Below, piece after piece: positions 49,749-54,915 of a DNA stretch of 64,000 nt. The first letter of the stretch is position 1, and each line of letters opens with the position of its first letter. This DNA is from Spirochaetia bacterium (GTDB lineage Bacteria; Spirochaetota; Spirochaetia; CADAEX01). The notes below the pieces were generated by a model that worked only from the letters and a program-made list of their open reading frames with translations, had not been told where the DNA came from and ran no database searches. The translations under genes were made by a program, and so were the position numbers. The stretch spans positions 3,136,001 to 3,200,000 of the forward strand of contig OY759746.1 of assembly GCA_963662795.1 (NCBI GenBank). Direction: 5' to 3'.

Positions 49749-50831
49749 TCAATTACAATTAATGGTCTTTTTACTAAACTCTATAAGATCTGAAAGTATT
49801 TTTATTTTATCGTAAATTGTGTAATACACGCTGACCGAAGAATTAACGAGAGATATTTTCTGAATGCAGTTATCATTTATTATTTCTGGTGATTGCGTTT
49901 TTATTCCCATAAAATTGAACCATTCACATAAATAGGTAATCATTGAGGTATCTTCTCCGGCTGCATCGCTTACAATAGCAATGGCATCGATACCTCCAAG
50001 AATTGCCATATAATAGCCGATGAATTTTATGATCTGATAAAAGTAAACTTCACGAATGGCAACTGCCTGTTCCGAAGTGTCTTTAAGGAATTCTCTGAAA
50101 TTTATGTTTCGGCCAAGGTATCCGCATATTCCGCTTTTGTTTTCAATAAGATCAACAATATCATGAATCTCCATTCCATATGCATGGAGTTCCATAAGCA
50201 TTGTCGGATCAATGTCCCCACAGCCGGTCATGGAAGGAAGCCCTTCGGCAGAGCTGAATCCAATGCTTGTTTCTATGGGTTGGCCTTCCTGTATGGCTGT
50301 GATATTTGTTTTATCCCCCAGATAAATACTGATAATTTTGGAAATTGAAGAATCATATTTTTGCTTTAGAATATCTGCAATCCATTTATGAGTTAACCCG
50401 AAACCGCCTCTTTTTGTAAAGGATGATTTTCTGAATTTTGACGGTATCGCGCAGATCAGGCTATCGTCAGGCAAAGCTGAAAAAAAAGCCTTATCGCTTA
50501 TTAATCGATGATGTGACTTTGGAAATAAAGCTGTAAAAAAATTGATTACACTGACAGTATAGAGGTCATTATTTGATAAACTGGCTCCGGCAGTATAAAG
50601 ATTATTGATTTGTATATTGCTGAGGTCTTCAATTGAATTCATCCCTTTAATAAGATCACTTTCCTGCAAATACCAGCATTCCTCAATATTTTCTTTCACG
50701 TTATAAGAAATGAATGTTTTAGACACTGTAAGCCAGTTTTCATATAACAGATCCGATTCCATAATAGATTGACAGTTTTTTATCAGAGTTAGTTTAATAC
50801 GGCTGGATTGGATATCAAGCAGTATATTCAC
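49749..50831 (-). CDS. Degenerate acetate-kinase-fold protein (probable pseudokinase)
   Basis: Keeps DKAFF, ETSIGFS..EG, CGDIDP, NKSG, LGGIDAI; lacks GHR, PLHN, FHG, the catalytic Arg and the terminal EE. Confidence 0.75.
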   Translation of the reverse strand: MNILLDIQSSRIKLTLIKNCQSIMESDLLYENWLTVSKTFISYNVKENIEECWYLQESDLIKGMNSIEDLSNIQINNLYTAGASLSNNDLYTVSVINFFTALFPKSHHRLISDKAFFSALPDDSLICAIPSKFRKSSFTKRGGFGLTHKWIADILKQKYDSSISKIISIYLGDKTNITAIQEGQPIETSIGFSSAEGLPSMTGCGDIDPTMLMELHAYGMEIHDIVDLIENKSGICGYLGRNINFREFLKDTSEQAVAIREVYFYQIIKFIGYYMAILGGIDAIAIVSDAAGEDTSMITYLCEWFNFMGIKTQSPEIINDNCIQKISLVNSSVSVYYTIYDKIKILSDLIEFSKKTINCN

Positions 50832-52042
50832 AGCAATACTTCCTCCATTTTATATAATTTGACAACTTCTTCTGCTATTACAATCTCTTCATCTGTAGGA
50901 ATTATGAGAATTTTAACAGTTGAGTCCTTACTGTCAATTCTGGCTATCATATCAGGTTGTGCCTGTGTGTTTTTCTCAGCATCAAGGTTAATTCCGCACC
51001 ATTTCATATCTGCACAAACCTGTTCTCTTATTTCTGCGCATTGTATTCCTACGTCATCTGTAAAAATAAGGCAATCGATACCCTGTAGCGCCGATATAAA
51101 TGCTCCAATATACCGTTTTACGCTGTGTATATACTTTTTCAGAGCGAGTTGTGACTTTACATCTTCAGGGTTTTTACTCCTTTCAATAATGTCACGTATA
51201 TCGCTGGACTTTTCACTCAGGGATAAAAGGCCGCTTTTATTGTTTAATATATTCTGCACTTCATCTATGGTATATCCGAAATCTGAAATTAAATTCATTG
51301 GGATAAATGCATCAATGTCTCCGCATCGTGTACTCATGACAATTCCAGGTATTCCTGTATAACCCATGGAAATATCGATGGATTTTCCATTTTTTACTGC
51401 ATTAATTTCCGAACCTCCGGTACCTAAATGGCAGATTATCATTTTTAATTTATCATTGGTTGTTTTTAAAATATCAGGAACAGTTTCAGTTATATACTGA
51501 AATGACAATCCATGGAAACCGTATTTTCTGAATCTGAATTTTTCTAAAATATGTTGCGGCAGTATGTACTGAAATGCCCTTTGTGGAATGTCCTTATGAA
51601 AGGCGTTGTCTGTTGTTACAAACTGAGGTATTTTGGGATAGATTTTTGCACAGGCTTTTATGGTCATTAATGCTACGGCATGGTGAATCGGGATAATGGG
51701 CACCAGTTTTTGCATTAAAGTCAGTAGGTTTTTATCAATTTCAGCAGTTGTAAAATTATCAAGCCCATTGGCCCATCTGTGCCCAATTATATCAATAGTG
51801 ACCTTGAGACGATTAATTGTCTCAAGAATAATTGTCACAGCTATCTGATGATTTCCAAGAGGAACTGTTTCAGTAAGATTAATATTCTCATTTTTAAATT
51901 CAATGAATGATGGTTTATCACCTTTAACCCCGACCCGATGTGCTTTACCTTTTAAAATTTCCTTAAGATTATCATTTTCCAGTGTTTTGTATACTTTAAA
52001 GGTTAAAGAAGAACTTCCCCCATTAAACACAAGTAAATTCAT
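50828..52042 (-). CDS. Acetate kinase family protein with Entamoeba PPi-dependent-type motifs
   Basis: FNGGSSSLTFK, YGFHGLS, CHLGTGGS, VMSTRCGDID, FTDDVGIQ, PTDEE. Confidence 0.85.
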   Translation of the reverse strand: MNLLVFNGGSSSLTFKVYKTLENDNLKEILKGKAHRVGVKGDKPSFIEFKNENINLTETVPLGNHQIAVTIILETINRLKVTIDIIGHRWANGLDNFTTAEIDKNLLTLMQKLVPIIPIHHAVALMTIKACAKIYPKIPQFVTTDNAFHKDIPQRAFQYILPQHILEKFRFRKYGFHGLSFQYITETVPDILKTTNDKLKMIICHLGTGGSEINAVKNGKSIDISMGYTGIPGIVMSTRCGDIDAFIPMNLISDFGYTIDEVQNILNNKSGLLSLSEKSSDIRDIIERSKNPEDVKSQLALKKYIHSVKRYIGAFISALQGIDCLIFTDDVGIQCAEIREQVCADMKWCGINLDAEKNTQAQPDMIARIDSKDSTVKILIIPTDEEIVIAEEVVKLYKMEEVLL

Positions 52043-52118
52043 GTTGTTTTTTTTATTGAATTAATATGTCGGGAGATTAAATTATTAAAAAATATTAATA
52101 GTCTCTGGGGAAATATTT

Positions 52119-52147
52119 GAGAGGATGGAAATATTTCCCATCCTCTC
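52119..52147 (-). other. Intra-operon stem-loop
   Basis: GAGAGGATGG / CCATCCTCTC 10-bp stem just after the folE2-like stop. Confidence 0.55.
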
Positions 52148-52160
52148 TCATTGAGATGTT

Positions 52161-54232: not shown

Positions 54233-54241
54233 TTTTTCTCC

Positions 54242-54850
54242 TTATGATATTTTATGTAATTGAAGGCCCGTTAATAATAACGAGCAAGAATCAACTGTCG
54301 CTTTTATCGATTCGGAAGAAAAAGTATTGATGGAATAGAGCATGGAAATTAAAATCATAAGTAATAAATGGGCCATATTATTTACATCAACGCTTTTTCG
54401 TATTTCTCCTATTTTTATCCCTAACTTGAGAATTTTAGCAAACAATTTTTTAATTTCATTAAGCCTTAAAAATATTTTTTTTCTCTGGATAATAAATTCA
54501 GGATTATTCACCAGCAATACTTCCAGAAGAACAGTAATGATTTCCTTTTCTGAAATAATATCTGTTAGAAATCTATGTATTAAAAAATTAATTTTTTCAG
54601 CTGATGTCAGAAATATATTGTCACATGCAGTCATGTAATCGGTACCGATTACATCCAGAATGTAGTCAACAGCAAAATCAAGAAGTTCCTGCTTGTCTTT
54701 AAAGTAACTGTAAAATGCAGTTCTCCCCAAATCACTATGATTTGCAATTGTATTCATGTTTGCATTATCAAATCCCAGGTGTGCAAATTCAATTATTGCA
54801 GATTTCATTATTTTGGTTTTTATTACTTTCTTGTTGATAATCTTTGGCAT
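54242..54850 (-). CDS. TetR/AcrR-family regulator
   Basis: GFDNANMNTIA..SDLGRTAFYSYFKDKQEL HTH. Confidence 0.9.
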   Translation of the reverse strand: MPKIINKKVIKTKIMKSAIIEFAHLGFDNANMNTIANHSDLGRTAFYSYFKDKQELLDFAVDYILDVIGTDYMTACDNIFLTSAEKINFLIHRFLTDIISEKEIITVLLEVLLVNNPEFIIQRKKIFLRLNEIKKLFAKILKLGIKIGEIRKSVDVNNMAHLLLMILISMLYSINTFSSESIKATVDSCSLLLTGLQLHKIS

Positions 54851-54859
54851 ATATTTTTG

Positions 54860-54915
54860 TTGACACCATTGTCAATAAAAATATATTTTATATTGACATC
54901 ATTGTCAATATAAAA
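54860..54915 (-). promoter_or_regulatory. Twin palindromic TetR-type operators overlapping the promoter
   Basis: TTGACA-ccat-TGTCAA (54860-75) and TTGACA-tcat-TGTCAA (54893-908); minus strand TTGACA-17-TATATT. Confidence 0.8.

What the first reader, a model, noticed from the sequence alone, without database searches (positions are those of the whole stretch)
49749..54915. Five-gene TetR - AckA - FolE2-like - PPi-type Ack - pseudo-Ack operon: candidate ATP/PPi interconversion module
Seen: five co-directional genes, tightly coupled (9-bp gap tetR/ackA, ATGA overlap at 52955-58, GTGA overlap at 50828-31), behind one operator-bearing promoter. Three are acetate-kinase-fold genes, and there is no phosphotransacetylase. 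Inference: an ATP-dependent and a PPi-dependent kinase sharing an acyl-phosphate would catalyse net ATP + Pi <-> ADP + PPi. That would be a PPi-generating or PPi-salvaging shunt, relevant because several spirochaetes and other anaerobes use PPi-dependent phosphofructokinase. The eroded FolE2 and pseudo-Ack could be scaffold or regulatory subunits of a complex that channels the labile acyl-phosphate. Alternative: a formate/formyl-phosphate or pterin-related pathway, since active FolE2 releases formate. I know of no described system with this composition.
Basis: partly seen in the sequence, partly recalled or inferred. Interest (0 to 1): 0.9.

Follow-up and report, generated by a model that had tools for sequence, protein, structure and literature searches.

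The report
Entamoeba-type acetate kinase cassette island
A horizontally acquired, repressor-controlled operon combines an ordinary acetate kinase with a three-gene cassette found in many anaerobic bacteria (a kinase resembling the pyrophosphate-forming enzyme of Entamoeba, an inactive copy of that kinase type, and a GTP-cyclohydrolase look-alike without its metal site), and the cassette's chemistry has not been tested.

Summary
Five co-directional minus-strand genes (TetR, Ack1, FolE2-like, Ack2, Ack3) have the stated overlaps and sit behind a promoter carrying two 16-bp palindromes.

- **Ack1** is an ordinary ATP-type acetate kinase.
- **Ack2** carries the extended PHOSPHATE2 loop (GTGGS) and the FTDD ADENOSINE motif. 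This is the bacterial class that Dang and Ingram-Smith (2017) flagged as "possible PPi-dependent ACKs". A profile of its family scores Entamoeba PPi-ACK best among solved structures.
- **Ack3** keeps the whole acetate-kinase fold but has lost the catalytic residues.
- **FolE2-like** keeps the FolE2 fold, but all three metal ligands are replaced. It is not decaying: members are about 50% identical across many phyla.

Ack2–Ack3–FolE2L is a conserved cassette in at least 15 phyla. Of 80 loci seeded on FolE2L, 38 hold the triad. Of the loci seeded on Ack3 that have room, 59 of 64 have FolE2L downstream. TetR and Ack1 are lineage-specific additions.

The operon is a roughly 6-kb island flanked by duplicated recG 3′ ends and is missing from a same-genus genome. 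The host has PPi-PFK, PPDK, H+-PPase and Pta.

The ATP/PPi-shuttle idea is plausible but unproven. The phosphoryl donor of Ack2 and the roles of Ack3 and FolE2L are only inferred. I found no description of the cassette in the literature searched.

The parts
54860..54908 (-). Promoter/operator region. Two 16-bp palindromes TTGACAnnnnTGTCAA (54860-54875, 54893-54908) overlap a sigma-70-like site (-35 at 54908-54903, -10 at 54885-54880).
   Evidence: The orthologous locus L012 has one exact copy and one copy with 2 mismatches at its tetR 5' end (L012 6056-6071 and 6089-6104; tetR reading frame 6077-6712).
54242..54850 (-). TetR-family regulator, 202 aa
   Evidence: PF00440 34.9 bits. No NCBIfam equivalog reaches its cut-off. 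Orthologues head the operon in L012 (64% identity) and L013 (39%).
52955..54232 (-). Ack1: ATP-type acetate/propionate-family kinase, 425 aa
   Evidence: PF00871 444 bits, TIGR00016 457 bits against a 293 cut-off. GN-G PHOSPHATE2 and FAGGVGEN ADENOSINE motifs, catalytic residues present. Forms a 100% SH-aLRT clade with the Ack1 genes of L012, L013 and L150 inside the canonical group.
52161..52958 (-). FolE2L: FolE2-fold (bimodular T-fold) protein lacking the GTP cyclohydrolase IB metal ligands, 265 aa
   Evidence: PF02649 86.7 bits, but the FolE2 equivalog NF010200 scores 72.5 against a 215 cut-off. Model pLDDT 84.5; best PDB matches are 2r5r and FolE2 chains, TM 0.72-0.79 normalised by the query. 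Ligand positions are Cys->Tyr141, His->Tyr (Phe in the family) and Glu->Gln196 (with ligand identities from PMC11573665). 198 homologues, about 50% identical across phyla.
50828..52042 (-). Ack2: Entamoeba-type (EhACK-like) acetate kinase, 404 aa, catalytic residues intact
   Evidence: TIGR00016 339 bits. CHLGTGGSE and FTDDVGIQ motifs aligned to EhACK's chlGTGGS and FTDQMGLE. Family motifs are conserved in 29 genome-set members and 69 metagenome-set members. The family profile scores 4h0o best. Clade support 99.
49749..50831 (-). Ack3: catalytically dead acetate-kinase paralogue, 360 aa, GTG start
   Evidence: PF00871 120 bits, covering profile positions 125-379 only; TIGR00016 110.7 against a 293 cut-off. 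The equivalents of Asn7, Arg91, His180, Asn211, Arg241 and Glu384 are replaced in the window copy and across 32 family members. The model has the full two-domain Ack fold: pLDDT 80.9, TM about 0.8. Clade support 100, with a very long branch for the window copy.
49044..49370 (-). Remnant copy of the recG 3' end (left direct repeat of the island)
   Evidence: RecG_dom3_C 45 bits for ORF 49074-49283. 49120-49370 matches 55159-55409 at 90.8% over 251 nt, and 49044-49108 matches 55061-55127 at 77.6%.
55061..55409 (-). 3' end of the intact recG (gene 55113-57080) plus about 50 nt downstream (right direct repeat of the island)
   Evidence: In the same-genus genome G001 the DTW gene lies directly next to recG with no island.

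Best explanation
The five genes are a horizontally acquired, TetR-controlled operon centred on acetyl phosphate.

Its core is a three-gene cassette found in many anaerobic bacterial phyla:
- Ack2, an Entamoeba-type acetate kinase with all catalytic residues but an altered nucleotide pocket.
- Ack3, a dead acetate-kinase paralogue.
- FolE2L, a FolE2-fold protein without the cyclohydrolase metal site.

In this spirochaete lineage the cassette is joined to an ordinary ATP-type acetate kinase (Ack1) and a TetR repressor with two palindromic operators.

Most likely mechanism, with the status of each step:
- Shown by sequence: Ack1 is an ATP-type kinase and Ack2 is an EhACK-class kinase. Ack3 and FolE2L cannot carry out their families' reactions.
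- Inferred: Ack2 passes the phosphoryl group of acetyl phosphate to Pi, giving acetate and PPi, as EhACK does.
- Inferred: acetyl phosphate comes from Pta (encoded elsewhere in the genome) or from Ack1 using ATP and acetate. The operon therefore moves high-energy phosphate from the acetyl-P/ATP pool into PPi for the host's PPDK, PPi-PFK and H+-PPase.
- Speculative: Ack3 pairs with Ack2 in place of the usual homodimer partner, and FolE2L is a non-catalytic, possibly purine- or pterin-binding partner that gates the reaction. Some gating would be needed, because an ungated ATP-Ack plus PPi-Ack pair would drain ATP into PPi.
For: - **Gene structure and coupling:**
- **Family and motif assignment:**
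- **Match to a published class:** the Ack2 family shows exactly the features described for 'other possible PPi-dependent ACKs'. These are the extra Gly in PHOSPHATE2, the Asp next to position 323, and Asp at position 323 (PMC5517563, passages of section 12).
- **Closest solved structure:** the Ack2-family profile scores EhACK 4h0o at 460 bits, against 407 for 2iir and 376 for 1g99.
- **Cassette conservation, seeded on FolE2L:** of 80 GTDB-species loci, 38 hold the triad and 2 more hold Ack3+FolE2L at a contig edge, across at least 15 named phyla.
- **Cassette conservation, seeded on Ack3:** of 80 metagenome loci, 69 have an Ack2-type gene upstream (the other 11 lack room upstream). FolE2L lies immediately downstream in 59 of the 64 loci with room.
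- **ATP-type Ack joins the cassette in several architectures:** the window, L012, L041, L150 and L160. In G068, PPDK, pta, ackA and the triad lie within about 14 kb.
- **Host PPi economy:** PPi-PFK 814 bits against a 588 cut-off, H+-PPase 885 bits, PPDK 1346 bits, plus one Pta.
- **Five triad genomes checked:** Pta in 5 of 5, PPDK above cut-off in 5 of 5, canonical Ack in 4 of 5.
- **Island status:** direct repeats of the recG 3' end. G001, of the same genus, has DTW next to recG with no island. The FolE2L query found nothing in any of the 19 other genomes of the same family. GC is 0.36 against about 0.41.
- **Operators:**
Against: - **Few EhACK pocket residues match:** only 2 of the 5 residues that occlude the EhACK ATP cleft are identical in Ack2 (the Thr201 and Asp322 equivalents). 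Position 323 is Asp, 324 is Val/Ile as in ATP enzymes, and 327 is Gln here and variable in the family (residue list from PMC5931981 passages).
- **Motifs do not predict the donor:** published motif swaps did not convert specificity in either direction, and the authors leave the donor of this bacterial class open (PMC5517563 passages).
- **ATP-type Ack is rarely close:** it is adjacent to or within 4 kb of the triad in only 5 of 40 triad loci of the genome set (L012, L041, L054, L033, L035). In the metagenome set it is adjacent in 2 (L150, L160) and about 1 kb from Ack3 on the other strand in 1 (L152) of 80 loci.
- **One triad genome has no canonical Ack:** G066 shows only Ack2 and Ack3 (completeness not given).
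- **PPi-PFK link is absent in the sample:** TIGR02477-type PPi-PFK was found in 0 of 5 triad genomes at E<=1e-50. Other PPi-PFK families were not searched.
- **FolE2L is not tied to Ack2/Ack3:** 19 loci with at least 2.4 kb on both sides have no Ack next to it. Nine have only an ATP-type Ack, often with Pta. Five Thermodesulfobacteriota-type loci have an acetylating acetaldehyde dehydrogenase instead. Five genomes with an orphan FolE2L have no Ack2- or Ack3-type gene.
- **The window copies are atypical:** the window's Ack2 and Ack3 sit on long branches, 1.16 and 2.59.
- **No direct data:** no expression, binding or enzymatic evidence was obtained.
Confidence: 0.4

Rival explanations
1. The cassette is a kinase system with a different donor or substrate. 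Ack2 would use neither ATP nor PPi, or would phosphorylate a carboxylate other than acetate. FolE2L would bind or present a guanine- or pterin-type ligand, for example acting as a nucleotide-presenting or substrate-holding subunit, and Ack3 would be a structural partner.
For: - Asp at the 323 position and variable 327 differ from EhACK. [quoted passage not shown]
- FolE2L keeps many FolE2 framework residues (QxTVA, FPYFxxKxxPxS, Q..S, the His253 equivalent) while losing only the metal and catalytic set. This pattern suits ligand binding without turnover.
- The window's Ack2 has Ala at the Val93 position and Gly at the Pro232 position of the acetate pocket. I recall, from no call, that Ala occupies the Val93-equivalent position (A88) in Salmonella propionate kinase; the PDB titles only show that A88 mutants exist.
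Against: - The family consensus keeps Val and Pro at those pocket positions along with all acetate-kinase catalytic residues.
- Neighbours in other lineages are Pta, AckA and acetylating acetaldehyde dehydrogenase, which points to ordinary C2 metabolism.
- No pterin, queuosine or purine genes recur next to FolE2L: in the clustering, no family other than Ack is shared by more than 8 of 80 loci.
Confidence: 0.25
2. FolE2L is a general accessory or regulator of the acetyl-CoA / acetyl-P / acetate node that works with any acetate kinase. The Ack2-Ack3 pair is one client among several, and the PPi question is secondary.
For: - FolE2L lies directly after an ATP-type Ack in 9 of 80 loci, with Pta upstream of that Ack in five of them (L019, L021, L065, L078, L089).
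- It lies after an acetylating acetaldehyde dehydrogenase in 5 loci (567 bits to the N-terminal half of AdhE).
- It lies after Ack3 in the triads.
- In the window it is translationally coupled to Ack1.
- Its C-terminal tail has nearly invariant Lys251, Trp254, Pro256 and Ser258 but pLDDT below 50. That is typical of a docking motif.
- One locus (L042) has an in-frame Ack3-FolE2L fusion ORF of 653 aa.
Against: - 19 loci with room on both sides show no C2-metabolism neighbour from the families I looked for.
- The fusion was seen once and could be an assembly frameshift. A search for longer homologues found none.
Confidence: 0.2
3. The operon holds ordinary redundant ATP-dependent short-chain-acid kinases carried on an island. 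Ack3 and FolE2L are relics without function here.
For: - The genome already has two further PF00871 genes.
- The window's Ack2 and Ack3 are on long branches.
- The region is a low-GC island.
Against: - All ORFs are intact and translationally coupled.
- The triad is conserved in order and sequence across at least 15 phyla, with about 50% identity for FolE2L and family-specific invariant residues in Ack3 and FolE2L.
- The altered nucleotide-pocket motifs are fixed in 68 of the 69 upstream Ack2 genes of the metagenome set; the other has FTDQIG.
Confidence: 0.07
4. FolE2L is a working GTP cyclohydrolase IB feeding folate or queuosine synthesis, or releasing formate for a formyl-phosphate route.
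For: - Pfam PF02649 matches above its cut-off and the fold matches FolE2.
- Public sources name family members 'GTP cyclohydrolase FolE2'.
Against: - All three metal ligands and the proposed base Glu are replaced in at least 90% of 82 members (ligand identities from PMC11573665 passages).
- The NCBIfam FolE2 equivalog scores 72.5 against a 215 cut-off.
- The genome has a type IA FolE at 237.7 bits.
- The FolE2L query found nothing in any of the 19 other genomes of the same family.
Confidence: 0.03

Closest known systems
PPi-forming acetate kinase of Entamoeba histolytica (EhACK, EC 2.7.2.12; PDB 4H0O)
   Same: Ack2 and its family share the extended PHOSPHATE2 loop with the extra Gly, the Thr201 and Asp322 equivalents, GFHGLS and MSTRCGDID, and all catalytic residues. 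EhACK is the best-scoring solved structure for the family profile.
   Different: Asp replaces Gln323, Val/Ile replaces Met324, and position 327 varies. Bacterial members are almost always followed by a dead paralogue and a FolE2-like gene, whereas EhACK was assayed as recombinant enzyme without such partners (PMC9983610 passages). I could not check Entamoeba genomes for Ack3 or FolE2L homologues.
'Other possible PPi-dependent ACKs' of Anaerolineaceae (Dang and Ingram-Smith 2017, PMC5517563, section 12)
   Same: The two diagnostic features are identical: the extended PHOSPHATE2 loop, and Asp-Asp in the ADENOSINE motif. Ack2 belongs to this sequence class.
   Different: The passages I read describe four genomes plus some digester metagenome sequences and say nothing about neighbouring genes. 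Here the class appears in hundreds of sequences from at least 15 phyla, with two conserved partner genes.
Canonical Pta-AckA pathway (ATP-dependent acetate kinase, e.g. Methanosarcina thermophila 1G99)
   Same: Ack1 has all ATP-type motifs and catalytic residues. Pta is encoded in the genome.
   Different: Ack1 is not next to pta. It is translationally coupled to FolE2L and belongs to a sub-clade found only next to this cassette.
GTP cyclohydrolase IB (FolE2; PDB 3D2O, 8G6C, 2R5R)
   Same: Same bimodular T-fold (TM about 0.75-0.8) and same Pfam family.
   Different: The Cys/His/Glu metal triad and the Glu base are replaced. The protein has its own invariant residues and a conserved C-terminal tail, and its genomic context is acetate kinases rather than folate or queuosine genes.

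Membership tests
Acetate/propionate kinase family (PF00871 / TIGR00016) | Profile score above the curated cut-off | tested here: met
   Ack1 scores 444 (Pfam) and 457 (TIGR00016, cut-off 293). Ack2 scores 331 and 339. Ack3 passes Pfam only (120 against 22) and fails TIGR00016 (110.7 against 293.4).
Acetate/propionate kinase family (PF00871 / TIGR00016) | Catalytic residues (MtACK numbering, recalled from the literature and partly from PMC5517563/PMC4390882 listings): Asn7, Arg91, His123, Asp148, His180, Asn211, Arg241, Glu384 | tested here: met
   Met for Ack1. Met for Ack2 except the Asn211 position, which is Thr as in EhACK. Not met for Ack3, where only the Asp148 equivalent is kept.
PPi-dependent acetate kinase (EhACK type, EC 2.7.2.12) | Extended PHOSPHATE2 loop with an additional Gly (EhACK Gly203) and Thr201 | tested here: met
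   CHLGTGGSE in the window. HLGTGG[SA]S is at least 90% conserved in 29 genome-set members and present in 62 of 62 metagenome-set members where that region is on the contig.
PPi-dependent acetate kinase (EhACK type, EC 2.7.2.12) | ADENOSINE-motif residues occluding the adenosine pocket: Asp322, Gln323, Met324, Glu327 | tested here: not met
   Only Asp322 matches. The window has FTDDVGIQ (Asp, Val, Gln at positions 323, 324, 327) and the family has FTDD(I/V)G. One metagenome member (L139) has FTDQIG.
PPi-dependent acetate kinase (EhACK type, EC 2.7.2.12) | Acetyl phosphate + Pi -> acetate + PPi activity, with no ATP/ADP use | not testable with these tools
   Needs an enzyme assay.
GTP cyclohydrolase IB (FolE2) | Equivalog-level profile score (NF010200, cut-off 215) | tested here: not met
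   72.5 bits. The Pfam family-level model PF02649 is met at 86.7 against 25.
GTP cyclohydrolase IB (FolE2) | Metal ligands Cys154, His166, Glu208 and base Glu250 (B. pseudomallei numbering, PMC11573665 passages) | tested here: not met
   The ligands are replaced by Tyr141, Tyr (Phe154 in at least 90% of the family) and Gln196. Glu250 is replaced by Gly238, and the His253 equivalent (His241) is kept.
GTP cyclohydrolase IB (FolE2) | Bimodular T-fold | tested here: met
   Model pLDDT 84.5. Foldseek gives 2r5r at E 1.6e-19 and TM 0.79, and 3d2o, 8g6c and 5k95 at TM 0.72-0.76.
TetR-family repressor with palindromic operator | N-terminal TetR HTH domain and inverted-repeat operator(s) at its own promoter | tested here: met
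   PF00440 34.9 bits. Two 16-bp palindromes overlap the promoter. DNA binding and the ligand were not tested.

The most novel reading that the evidence does not exclude
Ack2-Ack3-FolE2L is a three-subunit PPi-forming acetate kinase holoenzyme. Its parts would be a catalytic Entamoeba-type subunit, a dead paralogue replacing the second protomer, and a T-fold pseudo-cyclohydrolase that senses a guanine or pterin ligand and gates the reaction. It would act as a dedicated PPi source for PPi-dependent glycolysis (PPDK, PPi-PFK) in many anaerobic bacterial phyla, and as the bacterial ancestor of the 'unique' Entamoeba enzyme. In this spirochaete, adding an ATP-type Ack1 would make it a regulated ATP + Pi -> ADP + PPi converter that uses acetate catalytically.
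Probability: 0.2. Interest if true: 0.85.

Novelty: new variant of a known kind. Interest (0 to 1): 0.72.

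Why it matters
**PPi-ACK may not be unique to Entamoeba.** PPi-dependent acetate kinase is described in print as known only from Entamoeba (PMC5517563 and PMC5931981 passages). The source of PPi for PPi-dependent glycolysis is an open problem in at least one well-studied anaerobe (PMC8863071 abstract and passages). 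Here the Entamoeba-like bacterial kinases form a large family in at least 15 phyla.

**The family has fixed partners.** The kinase is almost always encoded with two conserved pseudoenzyme-like partners. Public sources annotate these genes simply as 'acetate kinase' and 'GTP cyclohydrolase FolE2'. That is misleading for FolE2L and says nothing about Ack3.

**It gives concrete experiments.** The cassette offers a defined three-protein system for testing phosphoryl-donor choice in acetate kinases. It is also a candidate regulated PPi source and a new job for a T-fold scaffold.

**If the biochemistry is ordinary**, the result is still useful as an annotation correction and as an example of paired pseudoenzymes conserved with their active relative.

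Tried and rejected
- **Complex prediction.** Complex prediction with Ack2 (1-396), Ack3 (1-340) and FolE2L (2-265) as partner returned 'no answer', score 0.00, and the controls were not run. This is no evidence either way.
- **Expression.** The look-up of sequencing runs listed no RNA holder, only 6 rows from 2 studies kept as contigs.
- **Defence system.** PADLOC gave 0 hits for all five proteins.
- **Fusions.** A search for longer homologues of FolE2L found none at E<=1e-20, which the tool itself calls weak evidence. Only one in-frame Ack3-FolE2L ORF was seen (L042).
- **Ack2-seeded neighbourhood survey.** Searching 200 further Planctomycetota genomes with the Ack2 profile at E<=1e-150 found 0 new members. 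The test 'does Ack2 always come with Ack3 and FolE2L' therefore could not be run from the Ack2 side. The homologous-protein search with the L139 Ack2 listed 120 family members but gave no context and no Entamoeba entry.
- **ESM Atlas.** It returned only generic FolE2 clusters.
- **Literature.**
  - 'FolE2' + 'acetate kinase' found 2 irrelevant papers.
  - Five PPi-acetate-kinase phrases, from 2015 on, found 3 papers, and none of the passages or abstracts I read mentions partner genes.
  - 'Entamoeba' + 'FolE2' found 4 papers holding both terms, of which 1 was listed, and it was irrelevant.
  - A search for the FolE2 mechanism paper did not return it. FolE2 substrate-binding residues beyond the metal site were therefore not compared.
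- **Not seen.** Supplementary files of PMC5517563 (full alignments of putative PPi-ACKs) may list more members.
- **Rejected readings.** A working FolE2 and a decaying relic operon are both rejected; see the rival explanations.

Full report
**1. What is in the sequence**

One search lists five minus-strand ORFs:
- TetR, 54242-54850
- Ack1, 52955-54232 (425 aa)
- FolE2-like, 52161-52958 (265 aa)
- Ack2, 50828-52042 (404 aa)
- Ack3, 49749-50831 (360 aa, GTG start)

There is also a 118-nt gap between FolE2L and Ack2.

Pfam and NCBIfam confirm the families. Upstream of tetR lie two exact palindromes TTGACAnnnnTGTCAA (54860-54875 and 54893-54908). With one mismatch allowed the window holds three matches where 0.15 are expected. 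The two palindromes overlap an 11-of-12 sigma-70-like site. The orthologous locus L012 has one exact copy and one copy with 2 mismatches at the start of its tetR.

**2. The three kinases are three different things**

I aligned the window proteins with 12 Ack1-like, 29 Ack2-like and 32 Ack3-like proteins from related loci and with the genome's two other Acks. Printed alignments to MtACK, T. maritima ACK and EhACK came.

- **Ack1** has the ATP-type motifs (HIGN-GAS, FAGGVGEN) and all catalytic residues.
- **Ack2** keeps the catalytic residues but has CHLGTGGSE and FTDDVGIQ. The family consensus is CHLGTGGsS and FTDDIG.
- **Ack3** has lost the equivalents of Asn7, Arg91, His180, Asn211, Arg241 and Glu384 and keeps only Asp148. 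The same holds across its family. It still models as a complete two-domain acetate kinase, with pLDDT 80.9 and TM about 0.8 to many Ack structures.

Passages of Dang and Ingram-Smith 2017 (PMC5517563) describe the Ack2 combination exactly. It comprises an extra Gly in PHOSPHATE2, a conserved Asp next to position 323, and Asp at the Gln323 position. They report it for four Anaerolineaceae ACKs listed as 'other possible PPi-dependent ACKs', and they state that the donor of these enzymes is unknown. PMC5931981 lists the five EhACK residues that occlude the ATP cleft: T201, D322, Q323, M324 and E327. Ack2 matches two of them.

An HMM of 18 Ack2-family members scores EhACK (4h0o) at 460 bits, 2iir at 407 and 1g99 at 376. 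The window's single sequence does not separate them: 274.9 for 2iir against 273 for 4h0o. The Ack3-family HMM is closest to ATP-type structures (6ioy 239.5) and scores 4h0o at only 163.

In a quick IQ-TREE of 56 rows, Ack2 (SH-aLRT 99) and Ack3 (100) are separate clades. Ack1 sits inside the canonical group, in a 100%-supported clade with the Ack1 genes of L012, L013 and L150. The window's Ack2 and Ack3 have long branches, 1.16 and 2.59. For that tree I sampled 14 of 29 Ack2 rows and 14 of 32 Ack3 rows at random.

**3. FolE2L**

By sequence FolE2L matches the solved FolE2 proteins (2r5r at 91 bits, 3d2o at 64 bits). It fails the NCBIfam FolE2 equivalog, 72.5 against a 215 cut-off.

The metal ligands of FolE2 are Cys154, His166 and Glu208, with Glu250 proposed as base and His253 conserved (B. 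pseudomallei numbering, passages of PMC11573665). In FolE2L these positions are:
- Tyr141
- Tyr in the window, Phe154 in at least 90% of the family
- Gln196, invariant
- Gly238
- His241

In one search only 2 of the 5 canonical FolE2 loci yielded a sequence for the comparison.

The model (82-row alignment, pLDDT 84.5) is a FolE2-type bimodular T-fold, with TM 0.79 to 2r5r.

The protein is not eroding. The search for homologous proteins returned 198 relatives, and the 120 best listed are about 48-73% identical. The named ones come from Nitrospinota, Poribacteria, Kiritimatiellae, Omnitrophica, Planctomycetes, Elusimicrobiota, KSB1, Thermoleophilia and Spirochaetia. There are 26 invariant and 59 nearly invariant columns among 82 sequences. 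The C-terminal tail has nearly invariant Lys251, Trp254, Pro256 and Ser258 but pLDDT below 50.

The genome has a type IA FolE elsewhere. Among the 60 other genomes searched, the FolE2L query found nothing in the 19 of the same family. It gave only five weak matches (24-29% identity) in other families, which I take to be canonical FolE2.

**4. Conservation of the gene set**

*FolE2L-seeded scan.* A scan of one genome per GTDB species found 200 stretches encoding a FolE2L relative, of which 80 were kept. Classifying the 80 gave:
- 38 with Ack2 and Ack3 beside FolE2L, usually in the order Ack2-Ack3-FolE2L
- 2 with Ack3-FolE2L at a contig edge
- 9 with an ATP-type Ack directly upstream
- 19 with no Ack although at least 2.4 kb lay on both sides
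- 12 with no Ack, but near a contig end

The triads come from at least 15 named phyla.

In five of the nine loci with an ATP-type Ack upstream (L019, L021, L065, L078, L089), a Pta-family gene precedes the Ack. In three of them (L019, L078, L085), a DUF4954 gene and a glucosamine-6-P-isomerase-family gene follow FolE2L. In five Thermodesulfobacteriota-type loci the upstream gene is an acetylating acetaldehyde dehydrogenase, scoring 567 bits to the N-terminal half of AdhE. Apart from Ack genes, no neighbour family is shared by more than 8 of the 80 loci.

*Ack3-seeded scan.* An independent scan of metagenome contigs found 243 stretches, of which 80 were kept. Of these, 69 have an Ack2-type gene upstream, and the other 11 have no room upstream. 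Of the 64 loci with at least 850 nt downstream, 59 have FolE2L immediately after Ack3. The exceptions are L112, L115, L142, L150 and L152, and L150 has FolE2L upstream of Ack2 instead. Among the 69 upstream genes, 62 show HLGTGG[SA]S and 7 lack that region on the contig. The ADENOSINE motif is FTDD[IV]G in 68 and FTDQIG in one, L139.

*TetR and Ack1.* TetR heads the operon only in the window, L012 and L013. A weak TetR hit on the opposite strand lies near L091. The same five-gene order as the window occurs in L012, a Spirochaetaceae MAG, with 55-74% identity for four proteins and 36% for Ack3. An ATP-type Ack is adjacent to the triad in L012, L041, L150 and L160. It lies within 4 kb in L054, L033 and L035.

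*Rarity.* The cassette is rare. None of 200 evenly drawn Planctomycetota genomes other than the seed had an Ack2-type gene at E<=1e-150.

**5. Whole-genome context**

Own genome:
- five PF00871 genes, three of them in the operon
- one Pta
- PPi-PFK above the equivalog cut-off
- H+-PPase
- PPDK

Five triad genomes (G066-G070):
- Pta in 5 of 5
- a canonical Ack in 4 of 5; G066 shows only Ack2 and Ack3
- PPDK in 5 of 5
- TIGR02477-type PPi-PFK in 0 of 5

In G068, PPDK, pta, ackA and the triad lie within about 14 kb of one contig.

Five genomes with an 'orphan' FolE2L have only ATP-type Acks, or none in the case of G062. The single HLGGGSS sequence among them is a truncated contig-edge ORF that lacks the ADENOSINE region.

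**6. The operon is an island**

A 69-aa ORF at 49074-49283 is a copy of the recG C-terminus. Positions 49120-49370 match 55159-55409 at 90.8% over 251 nt. A further 67-nt stretch matches at 77.6%. The remnant carries a 20-nt deletion.

In a same-genus genome (G001, completeness 81%) the DTW-domain gene lies directly next to recG. GC is 0.356-0.374 across 50-56 kb, against about 0.41 on either side. The five genes were therefore inserted between recG and the DTW gene, with a duplicated recG 3' end.

**7. Reading**

*Shown.* The gene set is real. Ack1 is ATP-type and Ack2 belongs to the EhACK-like class. Ack3 and FolE2L cannot catalyse their families' reactions, yet both are conserved. The triad is a conserved cassette. 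The island is recent in this lineage, and the host uses PPi-dependent enzymes.

*Inferred.* Ack2 makes PPi from acetyl phosphate and Pi. Ack1 or Pta supplies the acetyl phosphate.

*Speculative.* Ack3 replaces the second protomer of the Ack dimer. FolE2L is a ligand-sensing or docking partner.

*Weaknesses.*
- The motif match to EhACK is incomplete.
- Published motif swaps do not predict the donor.
- FolE2L also occurs without Ack2 and Ack3.
- ATP-type Ack is only rarely in the cassette.
- Nothing is known about expression or binding.

I put 0.4 on the PPi-transfer reading, 0.25 on another donor or substrate, and 0.2 on FolE2L being a general partner of the acetyl-P node. The remainder goes to the relic and working-FolE2 readings.

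**8. Novelty**

The EhACK-like bacterial sequence class is in print (PMC5517563). I found nothing in the searched library about its linkage to a dead paralogue and a FolE2-like protein. I read passages only, and the supplements were closed. I rate the finding a new variant of a known kind. The cassette composition is new and the chemistry is open.

Noticed in passing
window 49044-49370 and 55061-55409: About 330-nt direct repeats of the recG 3' end (90.8% over 251 nt; the remnant has a 20-nt deletion) flank the operon. A same-genus genome has recG directly next to the DTW gene, with no island. No integrase or transposase ORF appears among the ORFs of at least 60 aa listed for 46-58.5 kb.
   Followed up: yes
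G000:C1:3200577-3201746 (577 nt beyond the window's right end) and C1:2278838-2279998: The genome has two further full-length ATP-type acetate kinases, making five PF00871 genes in all. One lies only about 10 kb from the island.
   Followed up: partly
L042:6831-8789: A single 653-aa open frame in a Sumerlaeota MAG holds Ack3 (residues 131-375) and FolE2L (391-645) in frame. This is either a natural fusion or an assembly frameshift. Two other Sumerlaeota loci (L045, L088) have separate genes.
   Followed up: partly
L139:407-3486: A metagenome triad whose Ack2 has FTDQIG, that is Gln at the EhACK-323 position as in Entamoeba. It is the only one of 69 with this motif and is a candidate closest bacterial relative of EhACK.
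   Followed up: partly
window 50828-52042 (Ack2): The window's Ack2 has Ala at the MtACK Val93 position and Gly at the Pro232 position of the acetate pocket, whereas the family consensus keeps Val and Pro. A wider pocket might favour propionate or larger acids.
   Followed up: no
window 52161-52199 (FolE2L residues 253-265): The C-terminal tail, EKSxWVPxS in the family, is nearly invariant but is predicted disordered (pLDDT below 50). It looks like a docking motif.
   Followed up: no
L019, L078, L085 (Planctomycetota): FolE2L, which follows an ATP-type AckA (preceded by Pta in L019 and L078; the contig starts at AckA in L085), is itself followed by a 668-aa DUF4954+DUF6819 protein (L019, 573 bits to DUF4954) and a glucosamine-6-P-isomerase/6-phosphogluconolactonase-family gene. 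L079 has the DUF4954 gene but not the latter. This is a second recurrent context for FolE2L.
   Followed up: partly
G067:C147:3103-5291: A Myxococcales genome carries a second Ack pair (384.6 and 105 bits to PF00871) besides its triad on C165. This may be a duplicated or variant cassette.
   Followed up: no
window 14001-22000: A stretch of markedly low GC (0.28-0.34, against about 0.41 elsewhere) may be another acquired region.
   Followed up: no
(source names): Public sources name FolE2L family members 'GTP cyclohydrolase I / FolE2' and Ack2 members 'acetate kinase' or 'acetate/propionate family kinase'. The FolE2 name is probably wrong as a functional annotation.
   Followed up: yes
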